Assembly (NCBI GenBank): GCA_963744145.1
Contig: CAVUSO010000001.1
Location: forward strand, 7,328,001-7,392,000
Length of the DNA stretch: 64,000 nucleotides
Reading direction: 5' to 3'
DNA from: an uncultured cyanobacterium
Lineage (GTDB): Bacteria; Cyanobacteriota; Cyanobacteriia; Cyanobacteriales; CAWUOF01
Of this stretch, positions 7,548-31,832 are shown in pieces. Within the stretch, counting starts at the first letter, position 1, and each line of letters opens with the position of its first letter. Made by a program: the position numbers and the translations under genes. The notes beneath the pieces were generated by a model that did no database searches, was not told the origin of the DNA, and worked only from the letters and a program-made list of their open reading frames with translations.

Positions 7548-10262
7548 TTAGTTAATATGAGAATCAATCCATTTCAAAATTCCTTCATCATCAAATTCTT
7601 GAGCTAATTTCAAAATTTCCTGGCAAAAATTCCGATATTGCGGGTCAAACTCTTGTAACAGATTAACTTCCCGTTCAACTTTTTCAATATCACCGATTCG
7701 CGCAGCTTTCTGTAAAGATTCTAATTCTGCAAGGGAAGGTATAACCATTATTTTATCTTCATTCACTTCCGGTTTAACCGCAGTAAAATCCGGATTAATG
7801 ATCCATTCTATTTCCAACCGATTTCTCAATTTCTCCAACAGTTCTGGTAATTGGATTGGTTTGAGTAAAAAATCATCACTATTAAAGGGAAGTATCTGTC
7901 GATCGCTGAGAGAAAAATTATTAACAGACATCGCAATAATCGGTATTTTTTGCAATTCCGGTGAATCTTTTAGATGTCGAATCATCTCCATTCCATTCAT
8001 TTTTGGCATCACTAAATCAGTTAAAATTAAATCAGGTTTAGCGATCGCTGCTTTTTCCAAACCTTCTACTCCATCACTTGCTTCGAGCAACTCAAACCCA
8101 TAAGGTTTAAGTAAATCAATCATTAAAGTTCGACTTTCAGTGCGATTATCTACTACCAATAATTTCACTAACTCCCGACCAGTAAAACCAGTAATTATTT
8201 CTGGTTGAGTATATTTAGCTAGTTCTCCTTTTTCTACTCCTAATTCTAGGTTTAAATCAAAATGGAAATCACTTCCTGTACCTAATTCCGAAGAAACTTG
8301 TAAAGTTGAATCCATCAGTTGTAATATTTTTTGACTAATCGCTAGTCCTAATCCCGTCCCTTCCGCTTTACGTTGATTTTCTCCTACCTGTTCAAAAGGT
8401 AAAAAGATTTTATCTATTTGATCAGCAGTAATCCCTACCCCAGTATCTTGAACTGCAAACCGGATTTTTGTAGTTATTTGTCCTTGTTTAGTCACCTGAT
8501 TATTACCCAGTCCGATCACTTTCAAGGTAACCGAACCCTGATCAGTAAATTTAATTGCATTACCTAATAAATTGATTAATACCTGTCGTAACCGTTTTTC
8601 ATCAATCCGGACTCGTTCCGGTAAATTTTCGGCAAATTCACATTGAAAAATTAAATCTTTTGCTTCTGCTTTAATTCGACAAATTTCTGCTACACCTACC
8701 AAAAAACTTGGGAAATATATATCATGAACATAAATATCTAACTTTCTGGCTTCAATTTTTGCTAAGTCTAACAATTCATTAATCAGATTTAATAAATAGG
8801 AACCACTTTCATAAATAATATTGATACCTTTGCGATCGTCTTTAGTCAAATTTTGAGAACGTTGTAAAATTTGGGTATAACCTAAAATCCCATTGAGGGG
8901 TGTTCTAAGTTCATGACTCATCGAAGAGAGAAACTCGCTTTTAGCTTGATTAGCAGAGTCAGCATTTTCTTTAGCTAACTCTAATTCATGAGTTCTTTCT
9001 TTTACTTTTTCTTCCAAGGTTTGAGCATATTCAGCTAACGCTTCGTTGGCTTTTTTTAGCCGGAATTGATTATAATAATTACTAATTAAAATTCCGCTAG
9101 CGACAATTGCTAAAAATGGCGCAAAAAATGGGATTACCCAACCTTGTAAAAAAGCAGTATAGCTAATTAACCAAAGACATATTCCGGCTAAAATAATCAT
9201 CAAACCTGTACTGAGAAAGAACCAATTTTTCCCAGCAATTTTTTTCCGCAAAACCTCCCAAGTGCTAATAGCACTAACTAAAGACCACAGAACAATCCAA
9301 AGTTGATTGACCCATAGCGACCAAACTTGCAATTGATAGCGTCCATCTAAAGCACCGCTTACAATTTGACTACAAATATTCCCGTGAACTACTACACCTG
9401 GAGTAAATAATTTTTGGTTAAATAATGAATTACTATAAGGTGTTTGTAAAATATCGTTGAGACTCAGAGCTGTCACTCCAATTAAGACGATGCGATCGCG
9501 CATGAACCCAGGAGGAATCTGGTTTTTTAATACTTCAGTTAGTGATATGCTAGGAAATTTTTCTAACTGTCCTCGATAATTTAGTAAAAGCTGATATCCT
9601 CCTGTATCTTTTTGGACATAACCCCCTTCATTTCCCTGTAATGGAATCAAAGTAGTTCGACCTAAACCATATTTTTTCTGTTTTTTATCTAATATTTTTG
9701 GTTCAATTCCTTTCTGTTTTAGATAAAATAATGCTAATTTCATTCCCAAGCTTTCTTTTCCTTGCACCGACAATAAAGCTCGACGTACATTACCATCACT
9801 ATCAATGCTCAGATCGGATGCGGCAACTTGGTCAAGTTGATCTAAAGTGGGTGGAGGTGGAATTTTTTCGGGTGTGACTTTTTCCAAACCGATCAGGTTT
9901 GGTGTAGCTTTATATAAAGCAATTAACTGCTGATGTCCTGGTTCTACGGGGATGTCTCGATATAAATCCATCCCAATCACAGCAGGTTTTTGAGCCTTAA
10001 TATATTTTAGCAGTTGGGTTAAGGTCAAATCAGACATTGGCCATTGCCCGACAGCTTTAATATCAGCTTCTCCTGCTGTGACGATGACAATACGATTATC
10101 CGGTGGTTCTGATGAACGTAGACCAAAAAATTGGTCAATTGTTACCCATTCAAGCAATTGGAAAGCACCTGTGATGTTTCCAACTATGACTAATCCACTT
10201 ACAATCAGGGCAATGACAAGAATTTCTCGCCATTCTAACCATTTTCGGATCGGCAGTTTCAT
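7548..10262 (-). CDS. CHASE2-domain hybrid sensor histidine kinase
   Basis: CHASE2 motifs ([34 protein letters not shown]), 3 TMs, [13 protein letters not shown], HATPase, receiver. Confidence 0.93.
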
Positions 10263-10270
10263 TAACTAAG

Positions 10271-11542
10271 TTATAGTTGTTCCTGCAAAGGTTTTTCGGC
10301 TAAAGATTCTAATTTTACTTGCTTTAACAAATCAGACCATTCTTTGGCCAAATTTGCATCAGTTGGATGGGTGAAACGAGCTGAACTTAATATGCTCAGG
10401 GTATCATACCAAATTCCCGACTTGCCATATAAAGCTGCTAGTTGGATCACATTTAAAGACCCCGATGCTGATGGAGCTGGAACACGCTTTACCCATCCGT
10501 TAATACTGTAAGCATCCGGACGCATAATTTCACCTGGTTTGAGCAGAATGATTGACCATTGATAAGGTTTGCCCATTTCTAAAGGTGGTGCATCTTGGGG
10601 TAATTGAACCCCCACAATACCTCCAGTTTTGTGTAATTCTAGATTTGTTTGATAGTGATACAGTCGATCTTCACTATAAACACTCAAGAAAACATTCTTA
10701 GCGGGTGTATTAGGAATATAGAAAAAGAAAGTTGGATGTTCAGATATTGTTAAACCAATATTGGTGTTTGGTAATAAGGCTGTTGGATAAAGAGTTAGAC
10801 TATCGCTCCGAGAACCTCCTCCTTTGGTGCTGACGGGTTGTTGGTCATCGGTCGAGCCAAAATCTACATCTCCCCGAGAACCTCCTCCTTTGGTAATATG
10901 AGGAGTCTGATCATCAGTTGAGGTGAAATCTACATCTCCCCGAGAACCTCCTCCTTTGACGGTATTGGGAGTCTGATCATCAGTTGAGGTGAAACCGATA
11001 TCCCCTCGAGAACCTCCTCCTTTAACTGTGGTCGGAGTTTTATCCTCAATGGAGCTGAAACTGATCATTCCCCGAGAACCTCCACCCCTAACTGTAGTTG
11101 GGGTTTCGTCTTCAATTGAGCTAAAGTTGATACTGCCCCGAGAACCTCCACCTCTAACTGTGGTTGGGGTTTCGTCTTCAATTGAGCTAAAGTTGATACT
11201 GCCCCGAGAACCTCCACCCCTAACTGTGTTGGGTGTTTGATCATCAGTACCAGTAAAGTTGATACTGCCCCGAGAACCTCCACCCCTAACTGTGTTGGGT
11301 GCTTGATCATCAGTAGTAGTAAAGTTGATATTGCCTCGAGAACCTCCCCCTAACAGTTTATAGGCAGTTTCGTTAGTAGGTGGTGCAAATTGAATATCAT
11401 TTGCTGAAAAAATATGAAGATTAACTGGCACTTCACCAGCATAACTCATGGTAGCCCCTAATGCTACTGATGATGCGATCGCTACTATTCCTAGTTGACG
11501 ATGTATTCTTCTATACTGTCCAGCTTTTTTTGGCCTTTTCAT
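10271..11542 (-). CDS. Exported DUF928-domain protein with 22-aa tandem repeats
   Basis: Signal-like N-terminus; C-terminal DUF928 (GLTISEHPTFFFYIP, GKPYQW, GIWYDTL); nine GGGSR motifs. Confidence 0.88.
   Translation of the reverse strand: MKRPKKAGQYRRIHRQLGIVAIASSVALGATMSYAGEVPVNLHIFSANDIQFAPPTNETAYKLLGGGSRGNINFTTTDDQAPNTVRGGGSRGSINFTGTDDQTPNTVRGGGSRGSINFSSIEDETPTTVRGGGSRGSINFSSIEDETPTTVRGGGSRGMISFSSIEDKTPTTVKGGGSRGDIGFTSTDDQTPNTVKGGGSRGDVDFTSTDDQTPHITKGGGSRGDVDFGSTDDQQPVSTKGGGSRSDSLTLYPTALLPNTNIGLTISEHPTFFFYIPNTPAKNVFLSVYSEDRLYHYQTNLELHKTGGIVGVQLPQDAPPLEMGKPYQWSIILLKPGEIMRPDAYSINGWVKRVPAPSASGSLNVIQLAALYGKSGIWYDTLSILSSARFTHPTDANLAKEWSDLLKQVKLESLAEKPLQEQL
10805..11350 (-). repeat. 66-bp (22-aa) tandem repeat, 8 full units plus a ninth GGGSR motif
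   Basis: Period of 66 nt seen directly (e.g. gggtttcgtcttcaattgag at 11101 and 11167). Confidence 0.95.
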
Positions 11543-11887: not shown

Positions 11888-14617
11888 TTAAAGCCAATTA
11901 CCAACTAAAACAAAAGGAGACCAGAAAAAAGGATGTTGATACTTAGAATGGATTAAAGATATCTGAGCTTGACGTAAAGCTTCAGCTTTGCTAGAAGCAT
12001 CTGTGGTTAATTGATGATAAAAATTGATCATTAATTCAGCCGTAGATTCGTCTCGCACTGACCATAAAGTAGCCATGGTACTGCGGGCACCCGATCGCAG
12101 AGCAATTCCGGCAATTCCTAGAGCAGCTCGTCGATCGCCATCTGCTGTTTGACAAGCACTTAAGACTAAAAGTTGCAGCGGATTTGGCGATTTTCTGGAT
12201 TGGAATGCGAGTAAATCTCCAAATTCTTTGACGTTGATTTCTCCATCCCAAGTGAGGAGAAAAGTTTGTTCAGCATCAGAACTAAATTGACCGTGGGTAG
12301 CTAGATGGATGATATCAAAAGCATTTTCTTCGATTTGGCTTTTTAAACCAGTACGAGTAAATTTTTGATCAAGTAAAGTATGGGAATGGTGGTCTAATTG
12401 AGAAAGAATTTCCTTAATTTCAAGTTTGACTCCTGGTAAAGAAGGAAACCCTTGACGAGATTCAGTCAATCCAGCCGTAAGACTATGTAATCTGTTTTTT
12501 GATAAAGTTTGTGGACTGAGCAAATATAATCCCGAACTCAGAGCAACAGCATAATTTTCGATCAGGTATTGTTTGCCATCATAAAGAGCTGACATGGGAA
12601 TATTGCGGAGAAATCCATCTAAAACGAATACTATAGTTTTAATTTTTTGACGATCTAAATCTGGTTTAACTGGCTTAACCAGCCAGTTATAAACTATCTC
12701 CGAATAGCGTAACCTTTCTTGATCGGAATAGTCATAATTGAAGGAAGAATAAAGTGTTTTTAAAGTCTGATCTACTTCAATTTCAGAGAGTTTAGTAGCA
12801 TAGTGTCTGAGTGGTTGGTGAGGAACAGAAACAATCACTTCTAAGCGATCGCTCAGAAAAACAGGATAAATTACTGCTGCGGTTGGATCGATCTGGTCAA
12901 CCGCCACCGGGCCAGTTCTTAAACAAGTATCTTGGAAATAATTATCTAGTTCAGCTAATTGTAAAAATTTGATCACATTACGAGCCAGTTTCATGTCCTC
13001 TTGACTCGCATTTTCTGACAATAATAAATCGATTAGTTGGCGATGAATGGGTTCAGCGTTCTCATTAAAACTAAACTGAATTTCCCGGTTATTAGCAATG
13101 AGGTCACTGCGTAAATTTTGAATTGCCTGAAAAGCTTCTTGATAGTTAGCGAGGGCTTCTTGGCGTTTACCTTCTTGTTTAAGTAAATGACCAACTTGCC
13201 AAGCAGTAGTAACAATTAATTCATTAGAATTTTTCAGTTGTGCAATTTTTAGAGCAATTTGAGCAAGCTGTTTAGCATCTTCATCCTGTTGTTGGTATTC
13301 ATAAACCTTACTGAGTTGATTAATCGCATAAGCTTCGGCAATTTGATCGTTAATTGTTCGCGCTACATTAATTGCTTTGGTTAAATCTTGCACCCTTTCT
13401 TGCCAATTAATTACCCTGGCATTTTTTTGATTTTGATCTACCAGTTTCATCAAACTCTGGTTGAGATTGACTTGAGTAAAAACATAGTAACGACTAGGTG
13501 GAATCTGGGCAATTTCCGCTTTAACTTCAGGTAGAATGGCGATCGCTTGATCTGCCAATTTTTGCGCCACCATTAAACTTAATTGATTTAATTGAATTTT
13601 GGCTTTTAATCCAGGGTTAGTCGTAATTCTTAAGGCTTTTTTATAAAAATCAAATGCTTCTTCGATCGCATCGTAATCTCTCGCTAGATTAGCTATATCT
13701 AATAAAGTAGCAGCCCGATCATTATTAGTTATTTTCGCATCTTTAATCGCTAAACTTTTTTCGAGGACTTTGACGGATTTGGTAAATTCTCCCATTAATC
13801 TTAATGTTACTCCCAAGCTCCGTAATCCCGATGCTTTTAATACTGGATCAGGTTCTTGTTGAATTTCTTGGAGCGTTTCTTCTAACAATTTCCGACTCCG
13901 CTGATACTGTCCCATGCTCCGGATTGCTTGAGCTTGATTGATTTTGCTCCCCCACATCCCCTGAGAATTTCCGGCTTTTTTGTACAGAGATTCAGATTGT
14001 ATCCAACTTGCTAAAGCTAATTCAGCTTGTCCTGTTTTTAGTTGCGATTTTCCTTGGGTATTCAGAGCTTGTGCTAATACAGACCATCCAATTGGATCTG
14101 CTGCAGCTTGATTTTCCAATAACTTGATGCTACTTTCAATGGCTTTATCGGCCAGTTGCCATTCTCCTAAATCTTGATATGCTGAAGATATGTTAGTTAA
14201 TAATGATGCTTGGGGTAAAATTAGTTTCTCAGATGCTAGAATATTTAGGGCTTGTTGCCAAATCGCGATCGCTTCTTGATAGCGTCCCTCTTGCTCGAGT
14301 TTTCTTCCTTGTTCTATTAATCCTTCTGGTGTTTGGACTTGTTCAACCACTCCCATATTTGTTGGGACATGGGCAAAAACTGGCATCACTAGCGTTACTA
14401 ATAATAAAGCTACCAAACCTAACCCTAAATAAAAAGAAGATCTGGCTAACTTTCTCAGGAAGTTTTCCAGAAGTAATACCAATTTAATGTGAAGTTGCAC
14501 AAAGCTAAATCCCCCTAAATCCCCCTTAAGAAGGGGGACTTTTAATTCTGGCTCCCCCTTTTTAAGGGGGTTGGGGGGATCAATTCTATGCAGCTTTTTT
14601 TTGAAAAATTTATACAT
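11888..14617 (-). CDS. Exported TPR + CHAT (caspase-like, clan CD) protease
   Basis: Hydrophobic signal region, TPR-like helices, CHAT motifs IHLATHGQF and LVLSACQTA, C-terminal HPFFWSPFVLVGNWL. Start uncertain because the N-terminus contains a repeat element. Confidence 0.92.
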   Translation of the reverse strand: MYKFFKKKLHRIDPPNPLKKGEPELKVPLLKGDLGGFSFVQLHIKLVLLLENFLRKLARSSFYLGLGLVALLLVTLVMPVFAHVPTNMGVVEQVQTPEGLIEQGRKLEQEGRYQEAIAIWQQALNILASEKLILPQASLLTNISSAYQDLGEWQLADKAIESSIKLLENQAAADPIGWSVLAQALNTQGKSQLKTGQAELALASWIQSESLYKKAGNSQGMWGSKINQAQAIRSMGQYQRSRKLLEETLQEIQQEPDPVLKASGLRSLGVTLRLMGEFTKSVKVLEKSLAIKDAKITNNDRAATLLDIANLARDYDAIEEAFDFYKKALRITTNPGLKAKIQLNQLSLMVAQKLADQAIAILPEVKAEIAQIPPSRYYVFTQVNLNQSLMKLVDQNQKNARVINWQERVQDLTKAINVARTINDQIAEAYAINQLSKVYEYQQQDEDAKQLAQIALKIAQLKNSNELIVTTAWQVGHLLKQEGKRQEALANYQEAFQAIQNLRSDLIANNREIQFSFNENAEPIHRQLIDLLLSENASQEDMKLARNVIKFLQLAELDNYFQDTCLRTGPVAVDQIDPTAAVIYPVFLSDRLEVIVSVPHQPLRHYATKLSEIEVDQTLKTLYSSFNYDYSDQERLRYSEIVYNWLVKPVKPDLDRQKIKTIVFVLDGFLRNIPMSALYDGKQYLIENYAVALSSGLYLLSPQTLSKNRLHSLTAGLTESRQGFPSLPGVKLEIKEILSQLDHHSHTLLDQKFTRTGLKSQIEENAFDIIHLATHGQFSSDAEQTFLLTWDGEINVKEFGDLLAFQSRKSPNPLQLLVLSACQTADGDRRAALGIAGIALRSGARSTMATLWSVRDESTAELMINFYHQLTTDASSKAEALRQAQISLIHSKYQHPFFWSPFVLVGNWL
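14477..14614. mobile_element. MITE-family element with CCCCCTTAAGAAGGGGG-type hairpin cargo, in frame in the CHAT N-terminus
   Basis: Starts TACCAATTTAATGTGAAGTTGCAC (MITE end is TACCAATTAACTATGAAATTGCAC); other end degenerate; encodes LHRIDPPNPLKKGEPELKVPLLKGDLGGFSFVQLHIKLV. Confidence 0.7.
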
Positions 14618-16482
14618 ACTAGATTTTTGAGTTTACCTTGATCCGAGAGTTACTCGATTAACTTTAATTATTTTAAGTGTTGCTCTTGTTCACTAAAATA
14701 TTTATCACTGCTACTTTAATCTGTTATAATTTCTAGGTTAAATTTTTAGTTAACCCTAGTTTTCTAAATTTATTAGGCACTGCCAGTAATCTAGCGCGAT
14801 CGGTACAGAAAAAAGATTAAAATTAGGTTAAGCTATGTTTAAAATCCTTGACAATTCCTGGGGCGATCGGCTAGGAGCGGCGAGTTCGGCCCAGAAGCGC
14901 TCAAAACAATTTCTCCTTTTTCATTGATTTGCCATCCTGTGACTTCTCTAATTACTGGTAAGGTGGGAGTTGTTAATCTAGCCGAAGAATTAGCAGAATT
15001 TTGGGATAAGACTTGACTGGTGTAATCTGTGTAATCTTGCCAAATATCCTCACTATTAAATGGTTTGCTCGGATCATCTGATAAACCACCCCTTCTGGTG
15101 ATCTTAAACGTATCGCCACTACGTTTGGTACAATCGGCAATAATTTGATGAGAAGCATCAGCGAATTGTTGTGGTAGTTCGATTAATTCCGCACTGGTTT
15201 TAAGATCAGGAGTATTGACTTTGACATTACCAGAAATTCCAAATTGAGAAGAAGCAGTAATATTACTATCAGGAGAAAGGAACAAACCCGTAGTAGTAAT
15301 TAAAATATTACCACCGCTACCTCGGACAGCATTAGCATTAATGGTACTACCTTCAATGGCAGCGATCGTACCAGAATTAATGGTCAAATTGCCCCCATCA
15401 CCAACTGAGCCTAAAGCATCTACAATGATTTCACCACTATGGCGTAATTGCAAGGAATCTTGCACATTCAGAATCACATTACCACCCTGTCCAGATGCGG
15501 TAGAGCCAGTAATAAAGCCACCACGCTGTAATAATACATCTGTAGCATTTAACTGGAATTTTCCCGCATTTCCAGTTCCTTGATGTTGTACACCAACTCG
15601 CGCCCCATCTTGCACTGTCAGACGACCTGTATTAATAGTTAATTCACCTGTATTTCCTGAAAAATTAGGTGGCAATCCGAAATAATTGAGAATTTCATCA
15701 TTTAATTTAAAACCACTAGCTGAGATATCTGAAGGCTCTCCATCAGATTTAGTACCGCTAACCAAAATTGAGTCTGGGGCGTTAATTGTAACTTTACCAG
15801 CATTCCCAGAAGTGCTAGTTGTAGAATTTACTTGTCCGCCATCAAGAACGGTTAATTTAGGCGTATTAATCAGAGTATTACCTGCATTTCCAAATGCAAA
15901 AGTATAGGTGCTGATATAACTCGCAGCCAATAAAAGCGATGGGGGTGCTGTTCCAACCACTTCAATACTCTCAGATGCCTTGATATTAATATTACCACCA
16001 TTTCCCGTTCCATTTCCTGGTAATTCTTGTCCGATTCGATTAAGGGGAGAAGTATATATAGTTGATCCTAGTAAACCTCCATTTGTAATGCTTAATCTAG
16101 AGGTAGATAAATTCACATCACCCGCCGAGCCACTGTTATAAGTTACGCTACTGATTGCGCTATAAATAGGAGTATTATCATTACTATTTATAGCTCCATT
16201 AATATTTACTAACTGGCTAGCATCAATAGTAATATTGCCAGCATTGCCTGTTCCATTTCTAGGTGCTGGTTCTGCGATTTGGTAAGGAAATACTGCTGTT
16301 AAAATTTCACTTCCACTGTCAAGTCTCAATTGTTGGGTTGATATCGCTACATTCCCTCCATTTGATCCTCCCGAAGTATCTGACCAAATTCCCCCACTGA
16401 AATCACTTTCAAAGGAATTTATTCCATTTGCGGAGATTGAGTCAGAAGCATTAACGCTGATATCTCCTCCAATTCCATTTCC

Positions 16483-17939
16483 CAGGGTAAGAGCATCTCA
16501 ATTAGGCTTGACACAAGGATTAAGAAGGATCTAATGTAGACTCAGAGAAACAAGAAAGGAGGATTTGGAGCATATAATTATTATCCATAGCAGCGCGTTT
16601 ACTTTTCTGGCGTAAACTGCGTTTGTAAGTTGACTCGCGATTAAGAGCGTTGAGAGCTAATCGTCTGAGCAGAGAAAAGTTACGAGGACTGTGAAAAGAA
16701 CGAATGCGACAGCTATCTTCAAAAAAAGTACAATCTAAAGTCCAGTGTGCAGAATTTTCGATTTCCCAATGTTGACGAATAGCTCGACCTATGAATTCAG
16801 CATTGTTGTCTAAAGAAGTAAGATAGTATTGAGTCTCGCAAGTAGTTTTGTTCCAAAGATGACGGATACGATGAATGATGACAATACTTTTTAAACCTGC
16901 CCATAATTTGGGTTGGTAAAGGTCAGGAATGGCCGTAATAGGGAACACCCAAACTTCACGAATTTCCACCCGATGATGCCCTTTCTCAATCCGTTTGTCA
17001 TGAGTGAAATCAATTCCTGAAAAATTATTTTTCTGTGCAGTTTGGAAGAATTGTTGTACCTGATTATGTAAAGTTGGATGATTGGCTTTAAGTGTCAGAA
17101 TATAATCAGCTTTTTTATCAATAATCTTTTGAGCAATTTCGGTTTGGGTCCCCATCGCATCAATAGTAATAATTGAGCCAGCGATATCAAGTAACTCTAG
17201 TAATGCTGGAATAGCTGTAATTTCATTGGATTTATCTTGGACTTTCATTTGTGCTAAAACTAATCGTTGTTCACTAGCCCACGCACTAATCAAATGTAAT
17301 GCTGATTGTCCTTGATTTCGGTCATAGGAACCTCTGACAGTCTTCCCATCTATGGCAATTACTTCTCCTCCCATTTGAGTAACTAAGGTGTTTACCCAAG
17401 CTTGAAAACATTGCTCCAATTGGTTGGGGTTAATACTTTCAAATACTCGACGAAAGGTATCATCTGAGGGAATACCATTGGGTAATTCTAAAAACTCTTC
17501 TAGCCAAATTTGTTTACTAATCCCATAATTCTCAATGTCTTCCCAGCCTTGTGCTCCAGCTATTATGGCCAGAATTGCCATCACTAAAATGTCTATCAAT
17601 AAGTGTTTTTTTGTTCGGTTTACTCTCGGGTCTTCAACATCTTCAAAATGCTTGACTAAACTCTGTTGTATTTCCATCAAGTCAGCTACTACTTGGTTTT
17701 TCCTAGCAGAATGGGAGTTTTGTTTAGCATTAGCTATATTGATATCGAACCCTTGAGACATTTGAATATTCCTGGAGATTATGAGTTGGACGGTATAGTT
17801 TTTCACCTACCACTCTCTATGCTCTTTTGTCAACTATTTTCTCTACCAGATTTGTGATGTTCTGATCTCGATGGCTATATTTCATATTTGATGAAAATAT
17901 TCTGTATCCTCGGTGACAAAATTAGATGCGCTAACCCTG
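16483..17939 (-). mobile_element. ISAs1-family insertion sequence, 1457 bp, 11-bp target duplication
   Basis: TIRs CAGGGTAAGAGCATCT / AGATGCGCTAACCCTG; ATTCCATTTCC at 16472-16482 and 17940-17950. Confidence 0.93.
16520..17806 (-). CDS. ISAs1-family DDE transposase
   Basis: DPRVNR, GIPSDDTFRRVF, IAIDGKT, KSNEITAIP, TIDAMGTQ, HWEIEN motifs; exact start uncertain. Confidence 0.95.
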   Translation of the reverse strand: MKNYTVQLIISRNIQMSQGFDINIANAKQNSHSARKNQVVADLMEIQQSLVKHFEDVEDPRVNRTKKHLLIDILVMAILAIIAGAQGWEDIENYGISKQIWLEEFLELPNGIPSDDTFRRVFESINPNQLEQCFQAWVNTLVTQMGGEVIAIDGKTVRGSYDRNQGQSALHLISAWASEQRLVLAQMKVQDKSNEITAIPALLELLDIAGSIITIDAMGTQTEIAQKIIDKKADYILTLKANHPTLHNQVQQFFQTAQKNNFSGIDFTHDKRIEKGHHRVEIREVWVFPITAIPDLYQPKLWAGLKSIVIIHRIRHLWNKTTCETQYYLTSLDNNAEFIGRAIRQHWEIENSAHWTLDCTFFEDSCRIRSFHSPRNFSLLRRLALNALNRESTYKRSLRQKSKRAAMDNNYMLQILLSCFSESTLDPS

Positions 17940-19577
17940 ATTCCATTTCCTTGAGTTAGAGAATAAATTCCCCCTCCATTAGATAAAGTTAATCGATCTG
18001 TGGACAGAGCAATTTTTCCGCCATTTCCTCCACCCAAACTTATACTATTTAAGCCACTACCAAAGGAATAAAAAGGGTTGGCATTATTGGCGATAATATC
18101 GGTAGCATTGACAGTAATATTACCACCATTTCCCGGGGCATTTTGTCCTACCAATGTAGTGATTTGCCCCCCATTAGTTAGCATCATTTCTCTAGTTGAG
18201 ATTTTGATATCTCCTCCATTACCAGTCGCAAAATTTTCGCTACTGATCCGACTATTAGGATTTTTGTCTAGCTGAATTGGAGTAGTGCTGGTTGGTGATA
18301 CCCCATCGATGTTAATTGTATCGGCTGTGACTGTAATATTTCCAGCTATTCCTTGTCCTAAATTTAAGGTTTCGATCCGTCCCCCATCTTGAATATTGAT
18401 TTGGGGTGCAGTAACAGCGATCGCACCTCCTTGACTACTAGATCCTGATTCAATTTGATTCACAATTGCGGAACTTAAACCAGAGTTTGTCCCAGCAATT
18501 TCCAGAGATTTACTAGCAGCGATCGCGATATTACTCCCAGTTCCAATCCCATTATTACTCGCGCTAATTTGGGAACCATTGAGGATACCGATATCACCAC
18601 CAACTAAGGAAATACCACTATTACCTAGGTTGGAAACATTCACGACCGAGGAACTCAAGGTAATATTGCCAAACTGTTGCACCTGAGCATATCCTAAAGT
18701 CCATCCAGATAGATTTTGGGAAAGACTAACTTGTCCTAATTTCACGCTCCCAATTTCAATCCGTCCTCCGGTCGCGATCGCACTGGCACCTGTTAAAACT
18801 ACATCTCCACCAACTAATGCTAATGTATTTCCAGGCGCAACCGTTAAACTTCCTGAACTTTGCACTGTCCCTGAATTAGGTTGATTCCATTGTAAACCGA
18901 TCGGAACATTCATGCTCAACAATGGAGGAGCCTGTGGATTACTAGCACTATAAATACTACCATTGGATAGTTGAATACTGTTAGCGGTACTACCGAAAAA
19001 AGCACCACCAATATTTAAGCTGGTATTCGGTCCAAAAATTATCCCGTTCGGATTAGTTAAAAATAAATTTGCTCTACCGTTAGTATGAATTGAACCATCT
19101 ATATTAGAAATATTCTTACCTGTGACACGGGTGAGAATATTGTCAATTCCAATTGCATTATTAAAAAATGCTCCTGTATTCGTAGGAATCGAAAATTCTT
19201 GGAAACTATGGAAAAGTATATTACCTGATCTGGTCCCCCCTTCAATTTGAAAGGTATTCCCTTGATGGCTTACAACTGAAGGTTGAGATAACGTAGCATC
19301 AGGAACAATTTGGGCTGTTGCTATATTTGCCCAACTCAGAAATATAATTATGCTAAAACTACGGCATAGCATAGAGTTTTCCTAGGCGTATTTATAACGC
19401 ACTTATGAAACAGATTTAGTTCAAACTTACATAACCTCTTCTTAACATCCCATCGTTATATTATAATAAAACTAAGATCAGATTAAGATTAGTTTAAAGA
19501 CTATCAGTAAATAGGCGATCGGGGGATGACTCCCCCTTAAAAAGCAGGGCTATTTCATGCTCGATTCTCATATAATC

Positions 19578-19781: not shown

Positions 19782-22700
19782 TTAGTTTAAATTCCCTTGA
19801 CAAGAGGATGGGTAGAGAAAGGAAGAAAGAGAATTTGCTTCAGATGTAACTAAAACAATTTCTCCTTTTTCATTAACTTTCCAACTATTTGCTTCCCTAA
19901 TTATTGGTAAGGTAGGAGTTATTAATTTAGCCGAAGAATGAGCAGAATTTCGTCCTAAAAATTGACTGGTGTAATCTGTCCGATCTTGCCAAATATCCTC
20001 ACTATTAAATGTTTGACTTGGCTCTTCTGATCTCCCACTCCGTCCACTTACCTTAAATGTATCTCCACTCCGTTTGGTACAACCGGCTACAATTTGATGA
20101 GCAGGATCAGTAAATTGTTGTGGTAAATTAATGAATGCAGCTACAGATTGGATATCAGGAGTATGGACAGAAACATTTCCAGACACTCCAAATTGGGAAG
20201 AAGCTGTAATCTGACTATCAGGGAAAGTAAACAATCCTTGAGTAGTAATAAAAATATTACCCCCCTCTCCTTTAACAGCATTAGCACTGATGATGCTAGT
20301 TTCCAAATTAGCTAAAGTATCTGTATTAATATTAATATTACCCCCATTCGCAATCCCTTGAGCTTGCACAGTAATTTGACTTTGATCGCGTAACAGTAGA
20401 CTGTGGGAATTAATGGTAACATTTCCCCGATCGCCCGAAATAGCTGAGACGGCAATTTGCCCATGATTATTCAGCAATACCGAATTAGCTTGAATATCCA
20501 CATTTCCAGCTTGAGAAACTCCCTGTCCGACCTGGGGAACATCAGCAATTTGGAAGTTACTTGCGTTAATTAAAGCACCATCACGAACAATTAACTGATT
20601 CGTTTTAATCGCAATATTACCCGCATCTCCGATCGCACTTGCAGCATTAGTAAATATGCCATTACTACTAATGCTATCAGTTCCAGCAAGTTCCACGCGA
20701 TCGCGAGCATTAACTGTGATATTGCCACCTTTTCCATTCCCAATACTCGAACTAGTTAGACGTACACCTACTCCCTGATCTAACAATAGCGTACCTGTAT
20801 TAATTACAATATTACCTGAATCTCCATAAAAACGAGTATTAGCAGTAATCCCGGCTGTCGTACTACCAAAAGTCCGACTACTAGCACCGATTAATTTAAT
20901 TTGATTAGCTGCATTAATAGTTAGTGTTCCTGTTTTACCTGTTCCTTGAGTATCGGTAGAAATATTTCCTTGCTGAATCAGTAAATTACCAGTATTAATA
21001 GTCAAATCTCCCCCATTACCACTGTCATTAATTCTTGCTACAATTCCGGAGGTACTGGTATTAATTAAGTTGATATCTTGGGCAGAATTTATCAATAAAC
21101 TACTCCCCATACTGTTAGGTTGGGAACTAAAGGTATTAACATTTATTTCTGCACCATTTTGCACTGTTAACGTTCTCGTATCAATTCTTAATAGTCCCCC
21201 GTTACCAGTAGCTCCTGGTCTAATTTGGGAAAATATCCCACTGCTGTCTATATTATTAGATGATACTCCTGATATCTGAATCTGATCAGCAATAATATTG
21301 AGATTACCAAGATTACCAGCACCATTGATATTACCAGCAATCCGAGCGCCATTGCTAATTAATAATTTATTAGTATTAACATTCAGATTTCCCGTGTTTC
21401 CTAGTCCAGAAGATAGGGTTAAAATCCCACTATTTACTTGTTGGTTAGGATTAAAATTGTTAGGATTTAGATTAGTAGCTTTAATCACTGATGGATTACC
21501 AGGATTAGCAACAGAAATTTGTAAAGTGTAAGTTTGTCCCGGTTGGGGAGCTTTCCCCTCTAAAGGTACATTATCTGAAAGAGTAGTATTATAAACACCA
21601 ACCGCAATCACATAAGTACCTGGTTGTTTGAGCGTAGTAGAAAGATAGGAATCGTTCCTAAATGTACTACCTCCAGCACCATTTGTGATCGGAGAATCAT
21701 CATTACTACCAAGTAATGCTCCCGTCTTGCGATCGAATAAGAATATCTGGGTATCAATATTACCTGGAGCTAGACGTACAGAAGTTTTTTCACCATAATC
21801 GATATCAAAAATAGCTTTTGAATTCGGTTGACTGGTCGCAAATTGATAGTAGTCATAAGAGGTAGTTGCTGGACCTAATGGTGTTCCCCCCTGAACTACT
21901 TGGGTTGGTGTTCCCCCTAGAACAATTTGAGTAGGTGTTCTCGAAACAGAGACATGGGGAATAGTCTGGGATGATTCTATATTTGGATTAGCTTGGGTAT
22001 TAAAATTACTGGGAACGAGCGTATAGCTGGTGACTTGATCAAAAGGATTATTAGTAAAGTTGTTACTAATCCCGTCTAATGATGCTGTATCTGTAACTTT
22101 TACATTAATATCTCCCCCATTACCTTTACTAGTGCTTGAAGTCAGAACTTGTCCTCCAGTTTGGAATTGTAAATTACCTGTATTGATCTGGATTAGTCCA
22201 CTCGGATTATTACTATTAGTTACTGTCGCGATAAAACCCCGATCCGATATATTTAAACTCCCCTGGGGATTATTAATTGTAATGTTCCCACTCGGACCAC
22301 TGGTTTCATTGAGGGAACGAGTTAAAATCCCACTAAAAAGTCCATCCGTTGTAAACCCAGAAATATCAATATTGTTCTGAGCATTAATTACAATATTTCC
22401 TGATGCTCTACTATCACTGGTGATCGTTTGAATTCGTGAACCATCTTGTAATTTTAAAGTACCCGTATTAATTTGAATCGGTTGGAAACTATTCCCAATT
22501 AAACTTTGTTGACTCAACCGAGTAGCTTGGGTAGTATTAATCGCGATCGCTCCTGATGTTCCTTGGATTTGACTAGCGGTTAAATCCAGATTATTACTAT
22601 TAAGATTAATTTCACCTCCTTGCAATTGAGCGGTTTGGAAACTAAGATCAGTTGCTAATAAAGATAAATTGCCAGAACTAGTTAAATTACTTCCTTGAAA

Positions 22701-23270
22701 TTGGATTGAATTACGGGGATTACTATATTGTAATCCGGCTGGTACATTAATAGTTAATAATGGTGGTGCTTGGGGATTAGTAGCACTAAAACTTTGATCA
22801 TTATTAAACAGAATACTATCTGATGTTACTAAATTAAGTGAACCTTTAAGATCTAGTTGAGCATGAGAACCAAAAATAATCCCATTCGGGTTAATCAAAA
22901 ACAGATTAGCATTTCCTAATACACCCAAAGTCCCGTTAATATTGGAAGAATTAACACCGGTAACCCGCGTGAATATATTAGATATTCCGACTGGATTATT
23001 AAAATATGCCGCACCTCCAGTTGGAACATTAAATTGTTGAAAACTATGAAATAAATTACTCCCTCTTGTAGTTCCACCTTGAATCAGCAATTTATTACCT
23101 TGGTTACCAACCTGAGAAGGATTCGGTAATGTTACATCAGGCACAATTTGGGCTTGGGAGATATTTGCCCAATTCACCAATATGATTAGATTCACTATAC
23201 TAAATTGACTTATTTGTTTACCAAATTTAGTCCCATTGGTATTAGTAATAAACTTTAGTAAGCTATTCAT
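19782..23270 (-). CDS. Filamentous haemagglutinin-like TpsA exoprotein with an inserted PPC-like domain
   Basis: TPS domain (NLFHSFQQF, INPNGIIFG), GNxGNxxI repeats, insert YDYYQF...DTQIFLFD...NDDS...GTYVIAV, C-terminal ITASSQFG domain. Confidence 0.92.
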   Translation of the reverse strand: MNSLLKFITNTNGTKFGKQISQFSIVNLIILVNWANISQAQIVPDVTLPNPSQVGNQGNKLLIQGGTTRGSNLFHSFQQFNVPTGGAAYFNNPVGISNIFTRVTGVNSSNINGTLGVLGNANLFLINPNGIIFGSHAQLDLKGSLNLVTSDSILFNNDQSFSATNPQAPPLLTINVPAGLQYSNPRNSIQFQGSNLTSSGNLSLLATDLSFQTAQLQGGEINLNSNNLDLTASQIQGTSGAIAINTTQATRLSQQSLIGNSFQPIQINTGTLKLQDGSRIQTITSDSRASGNIVINAQNNIDISGFTTDGLFSGILTRSLNETSGPSGNITINNPQGSLNISDRGFIATVTNSNNPSGLIQINTGNLQFQTGGQVLTSSTSKGNGGDINVKVTDTASLDGISNNFTNNPFDQVTSYTLVPSNFNTQANPNIESSQTIPHVSVSRTPTQIVLGGTPTQVVQGGTPLGPATTSYDYYQFATSQPNSKAIFDIDYGEKTSVRLAPGNIDTQIFLFDRKTGALLGSNDDSPITNGAGGSTFRNDSYLSTTLKQPGTYVIAVGVYNTTLSDNVPLEGKAPQPGQTYTLQISVANPGNPSVIKATNLNPNNFNPNQQVNSGILTLSSGLGNTGNLNVNTNKLLISNGARIAGNINGAGNLGNLNIIADQIQISGVSSNNIDSSGIFSQIRPGATGNGGLLRIDTRTLTVQNGAEINVNTFSSQPNSMGSSLLINSAQDINLINTSTSGIVARINDSGNGGDLTINTGNLLIQQGNISTDTQGTGKTGTLTINAANQIKLIGASSRTFGSTTAGITANTRFYGDSGNIVINTGTLLLDQGVGVRLTSSSIGNGKGGNITVNARDRVELAGTDSISSNGIFTNAASAIGDAGNIAIKTNQLIVRDGALINASNFQIADVPQVGQGVSQAGNVDIQANSVLLNNHGQIAVSAISGDRGNVTINSHSLLLRDQSQITVQAQGIANGGNININTDTLANLETSIISANAVKGEGGNIFITTQGLFTFPDSQITASSQFGVSGNVSVHTPDIQSVAAFINLPQQFTDPAHQIVAGCTKRSGDTFKVSGRSGRSEEPSQTFNSEDIWQDRTDYTSQFLGRNSAHSSAKLITPTLPIIREANSWKVNEKGEIVLVTSEANSLSSFLYPSSCQGNLN

Positions 23271-31100: not shown

Positions 31101-31832
31101 GTTGCTTATCGTTTCAAGAACGAGGAGGAACATAATCTCAGCAGTATTAGAAAAAACTCTTCTATTGAAAGTTTGATCTGGAAACTGCTCGAATTATCAA
31201 CACCATTAAGTTTTGGAGATGCTTACCATTGGGTCCAAATTCTGAAAAGTATGGCAGAAATTGATTTAGATCGGGCAGCAAAGATTGCTAGTTTTGCACT
31301 GGTTGGTAATGGATTGAAAAAAGAAGAGGTAGAAGAAATACTGATTAACATGGCTAAAGATCATCCCGATTTAGTAATGAACCGATTAGGGGAAGTTATA
31401 ATTGACGAAAACCAAGGATGGCATTTCTTAATTGAAGACTACCGCTTTTTGTTCCAATCACTTCCTCTTAATGCTCTAAAAAACTGGCTTCGTTCAGTAG
31501 GTGTTGTTGGAGCGCGGAAGATTGCCATAAATCTACCGATTCCATACCTAGATGAGAATGGTCAAATTGTCATACCACCACTGACAGAGTTTGTTTTATC
31601 AGAATTTGAAGATGATGAAGATACCTTTCAACGTTTCTGTAAGGGAGCGCACAGTCTTCAGAGTTACGTTGGTAATATAGCATCTCAAAAGAAGCAAGAA
31701 GCAGAGATTGCCAAAAAATTCCTGAATCATCCGTTGCACAGAATTAGGGAATGGGCACTTTATGAGATTGATCGTTGTAACCAGGAGGCTAAATATTGGC
31801 AGCAAAGTGATGAAGAGATCCAAATTGGTTAA
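28172..31832 (+). pseudogene. Restriction-like nuclease + P-loop (STAND-like) NTPase + helical repeat protein, ~1219 aa, split by a +1 frameshift at ~30011-30017
   Basis: N-terminal DGGVD...WQYK, Walker A GESGVGKT, Walker B ILVADE. ORFs 28172..30088 and 30069..31832 join as WQQFF|RILNSRTTTPFTERIALLERRL if one base is removed. Confidence 0.7.

What the first reader, a model, noticed from the sequence alone, without database searches (positions are those of the whole stretch)
10805..11350. DUF928 precursor has nine (R/K)GGGSR motifs spaced by variable 16-aa acidic cores, like a polypeptide signal precursor
Seen: exact 22-aa period with an invariant GGGSR(G) and diverging spacers (NINFTTTDDQAPNTVR, SINFSSIEDETPTTVR x2, DVDFGSTDDQQPVSTK and others). 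Neighbouring units are most alike, consistent with tandem expansion. From my recall, DUF928 proteins usually carry about one GG(A/G)SRG motif. Known: several clan CD proteases (separase, metacaspases, gingipain R) cut after Arg, but this enzyme's P1 preference is unknown. Inference: the motif is the site for the adjacent CHAT protease, and expansion yields up to 8 peptides per molecule (amplification or diversification), or acts as a decoy or timer.
Basis: partly seen in the sequence, partly recalled or inferred. Interest (0 to 1): 0.75.

Follow-up and report, generated by a model that had tools for sequence, protein, structure and literature searches.

The report
Nine-fold arginine-motif repeat in DUF928 protein
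A secreted cyanobacterial protein of unknown function carries nine tandem copies of its family's own 22-residue N-terminal tag ending in Gly-Gly-Gly-Ser-Arg, and sits between a caspase-like protease gene and a membrane sensor gene, so it may be a protease-processed signal for a sensor whose ligand has never been found.

Summary
ORF 10271-11542 (-) encodes a 423-aa exported DUF928 protein with nine GGGSR motifs at an exact 22-residue period. Most relatives have one motif: 87 of 120 have one and 32 of 120 have two to seven. Nine is the highest count seen, shared with two other proteins.

The spacers are not free cores. The whole 22-residue unit is the family's conserved N-terminal tag, with R 100%, G 100%, P 97% and F 81% over 211 units. 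In other arrays the invariant Gly and Arg use different synonymous codons in different units, so each copy is under selection.

The gene lies in a conserved, apparently undescribed cassette: TPS protein, TPR-CHAT protease, DUF928, CHASE2 sensor. CHAT lies directly upstream in 34 of 40 multi-unit loci and CHASE2 directly downstream in 31 of 38. All parts carry export signals.

Cleavage by CHAT after Arg is plausible, because HetF, a cyanobacterial CHAT protease, cuts after Arg (PMC9457339). It is unproven. AlphaFold2 predicts the array as ordered beta structure (pLDDT 71-83), while a single-unit relative's tag is predicted disordered. My best reading, at 0.4, is a CHAT-processed pro-ligand for CHASE2.

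The parts
10271..11542 (-). DUF928 gene, 423 codons plus stop (protein P0001)
   Evidence: ORF list and translation. Pfam PF06051 matches aa 241-419, E 6.1e-47, 160 bits against a cut-off of 26.
11438..11542 (-). N-terminal export signal, about aa 1-35: basic stretch, hydrophobic core, then ...SYA/GE
   Evidence: Read from the sequence. AF2 models a helix at aa 12-28. 82 of 84 DUF928 ORFs in the loci have a hydrophobic segment in the first 60 aa. The cleavage position is inferred, not computed.
10808..11401 (-). Array of nine 22-residue units (aa 48-245), each ending in GGGSR. Unit 1 (11336-11401) is the divergent, ancestral-type unit with F-x-P-P.
   Evidence: Unit coordinates and identity matrix, TRF period 66, unit-HMM scores of 29-36 bits for all nine.
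10274..10807 (-). DUF928 globular part (aa 246-423): short low-confidence linker, beta sandwich, then three helices
   Evidence: AF2 pLDDT is 80-97 for aa 251-410 and 47 for aa 241-250. Foldseek gives Ig/fn3-like sandwiches, and MtxA C-terminal domain 4z29 covers both sandwich and helices.
11888..14617 (-). TPR-CHAT protease gene directly upstream. The ORF as listed is 909 aa; the true start is probably later, before the hydrophobic segment ...LGLGLVALLLVTLVMPVFA.
   Evidence: Pfam CHAT at aa 638-907, E 2.4e-60, plus TPR families. H775 and C822 are invariant in 40 homologues. N-terminal hydrophobic segment in 49 of 52 full-length homologues.
7548..10262 (-). CHASE2 hybrid histidine kinase gene. 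It starts 8 nt after the DUF928 stop.
   Evidence: Pfam CHASE2 at aa 24-331 (E 6.6e-62), plus HisKA, HATPase_c and Response_reg. CHASE2 is directly downstream of DUF928 in 31 of 38 multi-unit loci.
14839..19372 (-). TPS-domain (two-partner-secretion type) gene upstream of CHAT, split by an IS. N-terminal half 17882-19372, transposase 16520-17806, C-terminal half 14839-16329.
   Evidence: Pfam TPS and DDE_Tnp_1. The two halves align to residues 40-576 and 624-1098 of one intact 1119-aa homologue.
19782..23270 (-). Second, intact TPS-domain gene (1162 aa)
   Evidence: Pfam TPS E 1.1e-47 and NCBIfam TIGR01901.

Best explanation
The gene encodes a periplasmic DUF928 protein whose flexible N-terminal tag has been tandemly duplicated to nine copies. 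The tag is about 22 residues with the pattern V-x-F-x-P-P...P..T.G-G-G-S-R. The protein belongs to a conserved extracytoplasmic signalling cassette: TPS protein, TPR-CHAT protease, DUF928, CHASE2 sensor kinase. Most likely each tag is a docking-plus-cleavage site for the exported CHAT protease. The distal F/P part would dock at a fixed 17-residue distance from the scissile Arg, and CHAT would cut after that Arg. Processing would convert DUF928 into the signal read by the CHASE2 kinase encoded 8 nt downstream. That signal could be the released 22-mers, the freed globular domain, or both. Multiplying the tag would raise the number of cuts or peptides per molecule. Shown here: the array, its homology to the family's single tag, selection on every copy, the conserved gene order, intact catalytic residues, and shared export signals. 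Inferred: cleavage, its position after Arg, and the CHASE2 read-out.
For: (1) Arg is present in 211 of 211 units of multi-unit proteins and 25 of 25 single units. G-3 is 100%, P-9 97%, G-4 90% and F-17 81%. (2) Within single arrays the invariant residues use different synonymous codons. For example, the L005 Arg is CGG, CGC, AGA or CGT, and CGN and AGR mix in L006, L014, L020, L021 and L025. So each copy is kept by selection on the protein, not only by recent duplication. (3) TPR-CHAT is directly upstream on the same strand in 34 of 40 multi-unit loci and 13 of 30 single- or no-unit loci. CHASE2 is directly downstream in 31 of 38 and 16 of 30. (4) The CHAT catalytic His and Cys are invariant in 40 of 40. 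(5) 49 of 52 full-length TPR-CHAT and 82 of 84 DUF928 ORFs have N-terminal hydrophobic export segments, and CHASE2 is an extracytoplasmic sensor domain, so all parts can meet in one compartment. (6) In a single-unit relative the tag is predicted as coil at pLDDT 52-57, ahead of a domain at 90-98, so it is an accessible tail. The window's last GGGSR lies in the segment with pLDDT below 50. (7) Precedent: HetF, the founding cyanobacterial CHAT protease, cleaves PatU3 between R117 and S118, and R117A/D/H abolish cleavage (PMC9457339, passages). Separase cuts after Arg, and a periplasmic TPR-CHAT exists in DdvA (PMC11506125, passages). (8) The tag is modular. In 2 of 80 loci it also sits on other exported proteins encoded between CHAT and DUF928: a 155-aa acidic protein in L020 and a COP23-domain protein in L046. 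It is absent from the CHAT, CHASE2 and TPS proteins themselves (0 of 58, 0 of 74, 1 of 40).
Against: There is no direct evidence of cleavage. AlphaFold2 models units 1-8 as a regular two-to-three-strand-per-unit beta structure at pLDDT 71-83, and a folded array would hide sites. The motif persists where no CHAT lies within 7 kb (6 of 15 single-unit and 2 of 26 multi-unit ORFs have CHASE2 only), so the adjacent CHAT is not obligatory. The whole unit is conserved, unlike the variable cores of typical multi-core precursors. CHAT specificity varies across the family, since the DdvA paper says craspase target sites vary. The loci set is biased towards close relatives by the search patterns used.
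Confidence: 0.4

Rival explanations
1. The tags are not cut. They are multivalent binding epitopes. Each 22-residue unit binds the CHASE2 periplasmic domain (or the TPR superhelix of the protease), and nine copies cluster several receptors or raise avidity. DUF928 then acts as a co-sensor or scaffold.
For: CHASE2 is linked to DUF928 at least as tightly as CHAT. Within 7 kb, 22 multi-unit ORFs have both, 2 have CHASE2 only and 2 have CHAT only; single-unit ORFs split 7, 6 and 2. DUF928 and the kinase gene are 8 nt apart. The only solved structure that covers both halves of the DUF928 domain is MtxA. MtxA is itself an exported protein whose gene is followed by a CHASE2 adenylate cyclase gene (PMC4439547, passages). 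Conservation of the whole unit, not only the residues around Arg, fits a binding epitope. TPR domains are peptide-binding modules (general knowledge).
Against: It does not explain why an intact protease is so often the upstream gene (34 of 40), nor why an Arg preceded by three small residues is the single most invariant feature. No binding evidence exists.
Confidence: 0.25
2. The array is a structural beta-solenoid or rod with one coil per 22 residues. It acts as a spacer or stalk that holds the DUF928 domain at a set distance, and the Gly-Gly-Gly turn and the Arg/Asp residues are structural.
For: AF2 gives a strictly periodic strand pattern (E72-76, E84-86, E94-98, E106-108 and so on) with pLDDT 71-83 over aa 51-200. 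The period is rigid within arrays, at 22, or 23 or 24 throughout a given array. V/I at -19, F at -17, A at -10 and V/I at -5 could form a small core.
Against: The same unit, with the same invariant residues, is present once in 87 of 120 relatives, and a single unit cannot form a solenoid. There it is predicted disordered. Arrays of two to four units are common. The family-wide unit carries about three Pro and five to six Gly in 22 residues. Confidence decays to 47-63 over the last two units. Repeat alignments can create spurious inter-repeat contacts in AF2 (general knowledge).
Confidence: 0.2
3. The repeat is a functionally neutral slippage or unequal-crossover expansion of a 66-nt unit, tolerated in a flexible tail.
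For: In the window the motif codons GGA GGT TCT are identical in 9 of 9 units and neighbouring units are most alike, as expected for recent DNA-level expansion.
Against: Arrays occur in many genera with divergent unit sequences. In other arrays the invariant Gly and Arg are kept through synonymous and multi-step codon changes. No frameshifted or decayed units were seen in the window.
Confidence: 0.05
4. The units are PatS/HetN-type RGSGR morphogen peptides.
For: Only a loose resemblance in composition: the window has RGGGSR or KGGGSR. The PatS pentapeptide is recalled from memory, not from a call.
Against: No RGSGR pentapeptide occurs in P0001. The basic residue at -5 is a local feature of the window's clade, since V, T or I dominate at -5 family-wide. 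The protein is exported by a signal peptide.
Confidence: 0.02

Closest known systems
HetF-PatU3 of Anabaena PCC 7120 (CHAT protease and its substrate; PMC9457339, passages read)
   Same: A cyanobacterial CHAT-domain cysteine protease with TPRs and a single specific substrate, cut after an Arg that is strictly required. The residue after the cut is small (Ser there; Gly or Ser here).
   Different: In that paper HetF has a transmembrane segment with periplasmic TPRs, and its substrate is a cell-division and differentiation regulator. Here TPR and CHAT both follow an N-terminal export segment, the candidate substrate is exported, the site is repeated nine times, and no cleavage has been shown.
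Separase and other TPR-CHAT proteases, including periplasmic DdvA of Myxococcus (PMC11506125, passages read)
   Same: The TPR-plus-CHAT architecture. Separase cuts after Arg in an unstructured motif. DdvA shows that a TPR-CHAT module can work in the periplasm as part of a signalling relay.
   Different: DdvA is fused to an anti-sigma factor and is proposed to cut itself. Here the protease is a separate protein, next to a separate candidate substrate and a two-component sensor.
MtxA of magnetotactic bacteria (PDB 4z29; PMC4439547, passages read)
   Same: An exported protein with an Ig-like sandwich followed by a helical part. It is the best or near-best Foldseek match and covers both halves (E 1.2e-3, TM 0.52, 179 columns; E 3.2e-4, TM 0.47, 166 columns). 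Its gene is followed by a CHASE2-domain cyclase gene, the same pairing as DUF928-CHASE2.
   Different: No sequence similarity was detectable: a DUF928 profile against PDB sequences does not find it at E up to 10. TM scores are borderline. I could not see MtxA's N-terminal region, so I do not know whether it carries a comparable Arg motif.
Multi-copy peptide precursors (yeast alpha-factor cut by Kex2, cyanobactin PatE-type multi-core precursors; recalled, not from a call)
   Same: Tandem copies of a short peptide, each bounded by a basic processing site, with a dedicated protease. Copy number varies between relatives.
   Different: Those are processed in the secretory pathway or cytoplasm, and RiPP cores are hypervariable between conserved flanks. 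Here the whole unit is conserved, the array is attached to a large conserved domain, and release of peptides is unproven.

Membership tests
DUF928 (Pfam PF06051) | Match to the family HMM above the gathering score | tested here: met
   160.2 bits against a cut-off of 26, aa 241-419 on profile positions 2-184 of 184. All 120 listed homologues carry PF06051.
DUF928 (Pfam PF06051) | Exported protein with one G-G-(G/A)-(S/T)-R motif at the N-terminal edge of the domain | tested here: met
   The motif is present. The ninth copy (aa 241-245) sits on profile position 2. The window differs only by having eight additional copies. 87 of 120 relatives have one.
CHAT protease (the neighbour, PF12770) | CHAT domain with the catalytic His-Cys dyad | tested here: met
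   Pfam E 2.4e-60. H775 and C822 are invariant in 40 of 40 aligned homologues.
Substrate of a CHAT protease (HetF-PatU3 type) | Arg at the cut site in an accessible, unstructured segment | tested here: inconclusive
   Arg is invariant. The tag is disordered in the single-unit model, but the nine-unit array is modelled as ordered beta structure at pLDDT 71-83.
Substrate of a CHAT protease (HetF-PatU3 type) | Demonstrated cleavage by the protease, abolished by changing the Arg | not testable with these tools
   Needs biochemistry.
Multi-copy or multi-core peptide precursor | Tandem copies each bounded by a processing site | tested here: met
   Nine units, each ending in GGGSR followed by G (S after the last).
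Multi-copy or multi-core peptide precursor | Variable cores between conserved recognition flanks (RiPP type) | tested here: not met
   Conservation is spread over the unit, with F-17, P-15/-14, G/D-13/-12, A-10, P-9 and S/T-6 in addition to GGGxR.
Multi-copy or multi-core peptide precursor | Free peptides detected | not testable with these tools
   Needs peptidomics.
Beta-solenoid repeat protein | One coil per repeat in a confident model or structure | tested here: inconclusive
   Periodic strands at pLDDT 71-83, falling to 47-63. No coordinates were available to inspect, and no solenoid appeared among the Foldseek hits.
RTX calcium-binding beta-roll | Match to the RTX nonapeptide family | tested here: not met
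   Pfam lists only DUF928 for P0001 at E up to 0.01.
PatS/HetN inhibitor peptides | RGSGR pentapeptide (recalled) | tested here: not met
   Absent from P0001.
MtxA-like exported partner of CHASE2 receptors | Shared fold plus a CHASE2 gene immediately downstream | tested here: inconclusive
   The gene context matches. Fold match is TM 0.47-0.52. No sequence signal.

The most novel reading that the evidence does not exclude
DUF928 proteins are the long-missing ligand precursors of CHASE2 receptors. An exported caspase-like CHAT protease cuts after each Arg and releases up to nine related 22-residue peptides (plus the freed domain) from one precursor. The CHASE2 kinase senses them. This would be a bacterial, periplasmic counterpart of eukaryotic poly-peptide hormone precursors and of protease-activated ligand systems, with copy number (1 to 9) tuning signal gain.
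Probability: 0.12. Interest if true: 0.85.

Novelty: new variant of a known kind. Interest (0 to 1): 0.6.

Why it matters
CHASE2 is a widespread extracytoplasmic sensor domain. In the papers I read it is treated as a receptor for environmental change or for small molecules, and none names a cognate ligand (passages). DUF928 has no assigned function. Full-text search found it in one paper, which only notes a CHASE2-DUF928 cluster. No paper in the library holds both 'CHAT domain' and 'CHASE2'.

The conserved order TPS, TPR-CHAT, DUF928, CHASE2, together with an invariant Arg tag, gives a concrete and cheap hypothesis to test. It names a protease, a candidate substrate, a candidate cut site and a receiving kinase. 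If right, it would define a new extracytoplasmic proteolytic signalling route in filamentous cyanobacteria. It would also explain why the tag number varies from one to nine. If the array is instead a solenoid, it would be a case of a fold built by duplicating a disordered linear motif.

Tried and rejected
- Complex prediction of TPR-CHAT (aa 86-909, alignment A3) with four units plus linker of DUF928 (aa 158-262, alignment A2) gave no verdict (ipSAE 0.00 in both runs, controls not run). The tool also noted that the partner's own fold was uncertain. This counts neither for nor against binding.
- The first context scan with the 41-sequence alignment A1 failed because no stretch was conserved enough. 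The 10-sequence alignment A2 worked, but it biases the 80 loci towards the window's clade.
- A search for longer or fused relatives (742-2115 aa) found none. The tool calls this weak evidence.
- An exhaustive search with the nine-unit array alone found 34 proteins at E up to 0.001. By the periodic-chain count, 17 of the 31 new hits are 125-450 aa with two to nine units, and the three hits already seen are DUF928 proteins of 237-379 aa. The nine hits of 552-1482 aa are unrelated repeat proteins by inspection or lack the motif. So there is no evidence that the array occurs on large proteins.
- A DUF928 profile against PDB sequences found nothing meaningful (best E 0.12, beta-lactoglobulin).
- A TPR-CHAT profile against PDB sequences listed only TPR proteins among the best 60, so the S1 pocket could not be compared with a solved CHAT structure.
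- The ESM Atlas returned only DUF928 clusters.
- The plasmid collection gave one 69-nt match in a Nostoc DUF928 gene.
- NCBIfam has no model for P0001.
- The RTX-like calcium-binding idea and the PatS-like RGSGR idea were rejected at the sequence level.
Full report
**What is there**

The minus-strand ORF 10271-11542 encodes a 423-residue protein, P0001. Its parts, in order, are:
- a basic and hydrophobic N-terminal export signal;
- nine consecutive 22-residue units, each ending in GGGSR (aa 48-245, window 10808-11401);
- a short linker;
- a DUF928 domain (Pfam PF06051, aa 241-419, E 6.1e-47).

Tandem Repeats Finder sees the 66-nt period over 10808-11351. The Pfam profile begins on the ninth GGGSR (profile position 2), so the motif belongs to the family's own N-terminal edge. 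Units 4 and 5 are identical. Identity falls steadily with distance along the array, from 16.5 of 22 for neighbours to 7 of 22 for the two ends. This fits stepwise tandem duplication.

**How unusual is it**

Of the 120 homologues listed by the word-indexed search, 87 have one unit, 32 have two to seven, and one has none. That search found 175 proteins at E up to 0.001, and all 120 listed carry PF06051.

An exhaustive HMMER search of 1.84 billion representatives with the array alone found 34 proteins at E up to 0.001. By the periodic-chain count, 17 of the 31 new hits are 125-450 aa with two to nine units, and the three hits already seen are DUF928 proteins of 237-379 aa. The nine hits of 552-1482 aa are unrelated repeat proteins by inspection or lack the motif. 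A search restricted to longer proteins found nothing.

In 80 related genome loci, all cyanobacterial or unnamed, unit counts run 0 to 9. The period is 22 in most arrays and uniformly 23 or 24 in a few. Nine copies is the maximum I saw, shared with L046 and P0122. The multi-unit architecture is therefore a recurrent feature of one clade of the family, and the window sits at its upper end.

**What the unit is**

Aligning 211 units from multi-unit proteins gives the following conservation, counting back from the Arg at position 0:

| Position | Residue | Frequency |
|---|---|---|
| 0 | R | 100% |
| -3 | G | 100% |
| -2 | G | 93% |
| -4 | G | 90% |
| -9 | P | 97% |
| -17 | F | 81% |
| +1 | G | 84% |

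P at -15 and -14, G/D at -13 and -12, A at -10 and S/T at -6 are also conserved.

The single unit of one-unit proteins has the same skeleton: F/Y at -17, P-P at -15/-14, P at -9, T at -6, G-G-(A/G)-(T/S)-R, then G (25 units). The window's copies have drifted, with T/S/I replacing P-P, but they keep F, D, P and GGGSR.

In the window the motif codons are frozen (GGA GGT TCT in 9 of 9 units), which could reflect recent expansion or gene conversion. In other arrays the invariant Gly and Arg use different synonymous codons in different units. In L005, for example, Arg is CGG, CGC, AGA and CGT. This shows protein-level selection on every copy.

**Context**

The genes, all on the same strand, are:
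- a TPS-domain gene, here split by an IS (14839-19372);
- a TPR-CHAT protease gene (11888-14617);
- the DUF928 gene;
- 8 nt later, a CHASE2 hybrid histidine kinase gene (7548-10262).

I built local HMMs from the window's domains and ran them over 1,887 ORFs of the 80 loci plus the window. Counts use only ORFs with enough flanking sequence:

| Neighbour of DUF928 | Multi-unit genes | Single- or no-unit genes |
|---|---|---|
| CHAT directly upstream | 34 of 40 | 13 of 30 |
| CHASE2 directly downstream | 31 of 38 | 16 of 30 |
| CHASE2 directly upstream | 0 of 40 | 5 of 30 |
| TPS gene within 5 kb upstream | 22 of 35 | 6 of 21 |

Within 7 kb on either side, 43 ORFs could be scored. Multi-unit genes have both neighbours in 22 cases, CHASE2 only in 2 and CHAT only in 2. 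Single-unit genes split 7, 6 and 2. The two remaining ORFs have no motif.

The catalytic His and Cys are invariant in 40 aligned TPR-CHAT homologues. N-terminal hydrophobic segments are present in 49 of 52 full-length TPR-CHAT ORFs, typically ending ...P-A-x-A, and in 82 of 84 DUF928 ORFs. With CHASE2 being an extracytoplasmic sensor domain, all parts can meet outside the cytoplasm.

Caveat: the loci were found with patterns from the window's clade, so they over-represent close relatives.

**Structure**

AlphaFold2 on P0001 with a 41-sequence alignment gives a confident sandwich-plus-three-helix domain, with pLDDT 80-97 for aa 251-410. The segment around the last GGGSR is low-confidence (below 50 at aa 242-250). 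The array is modelled as strictly periodic beta structure with pLDDT 71-83, decaying to 47-63 over the last units.

A single-unit relative (L056, 68-sequence alignment) has its tag in coil at pLDDT 52-57, ahead of a domain at 90-98.

Foldseek finds generic Ig/fn3 sandwiches. The one solved structure that covers both sandwich and helices is the MtxA C-terminal domain, 4z29 (E 1.2e-3, TM 0.52; E 3.2e-4, TM 0.47). The MtxA paper states that MtxA has a signal peptide and that its gene is followed by an adenylate-cyclase gene with a CHASE2 domain (PMC4439547, passages read). The same pairing of an exported sandwich-helix protein with a CHASE2 receptor thus recurs in Alphaproteobacteria. The fold match is borderline and there is no sequence signal.

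**Mechanism**

I favour, at 0.4, a docking-plus-cleavage tag for the exported CHAT protease, with the processed products read by the CHASE2 kinase. The argument rests on:
- the invariant Arg preceded by small residues in an accessible tail;
- the fixed spacing to the distal F/P residues;
- selection on each copy;
- the conserved neighbouring protease with an intact active site;
- the shared compartment;
- precedent.

The precedents are these. HetF cuts PatU3 between R117 and S118, and R117A/D/H abolish cutting (PMC9457339, passages). Separase cuts after Arg, and DdvA is a periplasmic TPR-CHAT in a signalling relay (PMC11506125, passages).

A small further hint is that the tag is portable. In L020 a 155-aa exported acidic protein carries one unit right after its signal peptide. 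In L046 a COP23-domain protein carries two units at its C terminus. Both are encoded between CHAT and DUF928.

The evidence against is set out under Best explanation. The main points are the ordered AF2 model of the array, motif retention without a nearby CHAT, conservation of the whole unit, and the complete lack of direct data. The two main rivals are an uncut multivalent epitope for CHASE2 or the TPR domain (0.25) and a structural solenoid (0.2).

**Literature**

Full-text searches found DUF928 in one paper only. That paper notes a CHASE2-DUF928 cluster in Nostoc punctiforme and an acid-stress response of Synechocystis sll1891. No paper holds both 'CHAT domain' and 'CHASE2', and none holds 'CHAT domain', 'hemagglutinin' and 'cyanobacteria' together. 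Three papers hold CHASE2, CHAT and cyanobacteria. The one I opened (PMC8195603) has a single CHASE2 passage, which concerns a different caspase-CHASE2 fusion, and no CHAT passage. Seventeen papers mention 'CHASE2 domain'; I saw only their listing. Subscription journals are not covered, so a description elsewhere cannot be excluded.

**Verdict**

This is a real, selected and recurrent architecture in an uncharacterised but conserved extracytoplasmic cassette. Its 'variable core' element is wrong.

Noticed in passing
window 14839-19372 (-): The TPS-domain gene next to the CHAT gene is split by an IS with a DDE_Tnp_1 transposase (16520-17806). The two 496-aa halves align to residues 40-576 and 624-1098 of one intact homologue. 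No terminal inverted repeats were found by the repeat tool in 16250-17950.
   Followed up: partly
L020:9000-9467 and L046:9110-9799: The 22-residue unit also occurs on two other exported proteins encoded between CHAT and DUF928. One is a 155-aa acidic protein with a unit directly after its signal peptide. The other is a COP23-domain protein (Pfam E 6.5e-37) with two C-terminal units.
   Followed up: partly
PDB 4z29 / PMC4439547, against window 10274-10807: MtxA of magnetotactic bacteria may be a remote structural relative of the DUF928 domain. Its gene is likewise followed by a CHASE2-domain cyclase gene. According to the paper, the mtxA deletion showed no phenotype under standard conditions.
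   Followed up: partly
window 14380-14617 (5' end of the CHAT ORF as listed): The first ~50 codons of the listed CHAT ORF read ...PPNPLKKGEPELKVPLLKGDLGG.... Similar Pro/Gly-rich stretches head the ORFs in L008, L018, L019 and L044. This looks like a translated upstream repeat element rather than protein, and the real start is probably nearer the hydrophobic segment.
   Followed up: no
single-unit DUF928 relatives (A1, A4; L047-L064 ORFs): One-unit family members have two conserved Cys, one a few residues after the Arg motif and one in the sandwich. Both are absent from the window's multi-unit clade. They may form a disulfide that tethers the new N terminus.
   Followed up: no
window 10808-11401 (-): In the window, the codons for G-G-S of the motif are identical in all nine units (GGA GGT TCT), whereas codons of other invariant residues (F, P, G at -4) vary. 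Other arrays do not show this freezing. GGAGGT is also Shine-Dalgarno-like, but I did not examine this.
   Followed up: partly
window 62355-63998 (-), runs off the window end: A second CHASE2 protein, here fused to an adenylate/guanylate cyclase domain. Its upstream neighbour lies outside the window.
   Followed up: no
window 35118-40850 (+): A 1910-aa bacterial alpha-2-macroglobulin, a protease-trapping periplasmic protein (MG2, A2M bait region, bMG10). No link to the cassette was tested.
   Followed up: no
window 28172-30088 and 30069-31832 (+): Two long overlapping ORFs (638 and 587 aa) with no Pfam family at E up to 1e-5.
   Followed up: no
L074:6943-7773 and L079:9764-10612: Two Floridaenema DUF928 genes lack any Arg motif ahead of the domain. 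They also have neither CHAT nor CHASE2 found in their loci. With only two cases, this may be chance.
   Followed up: no
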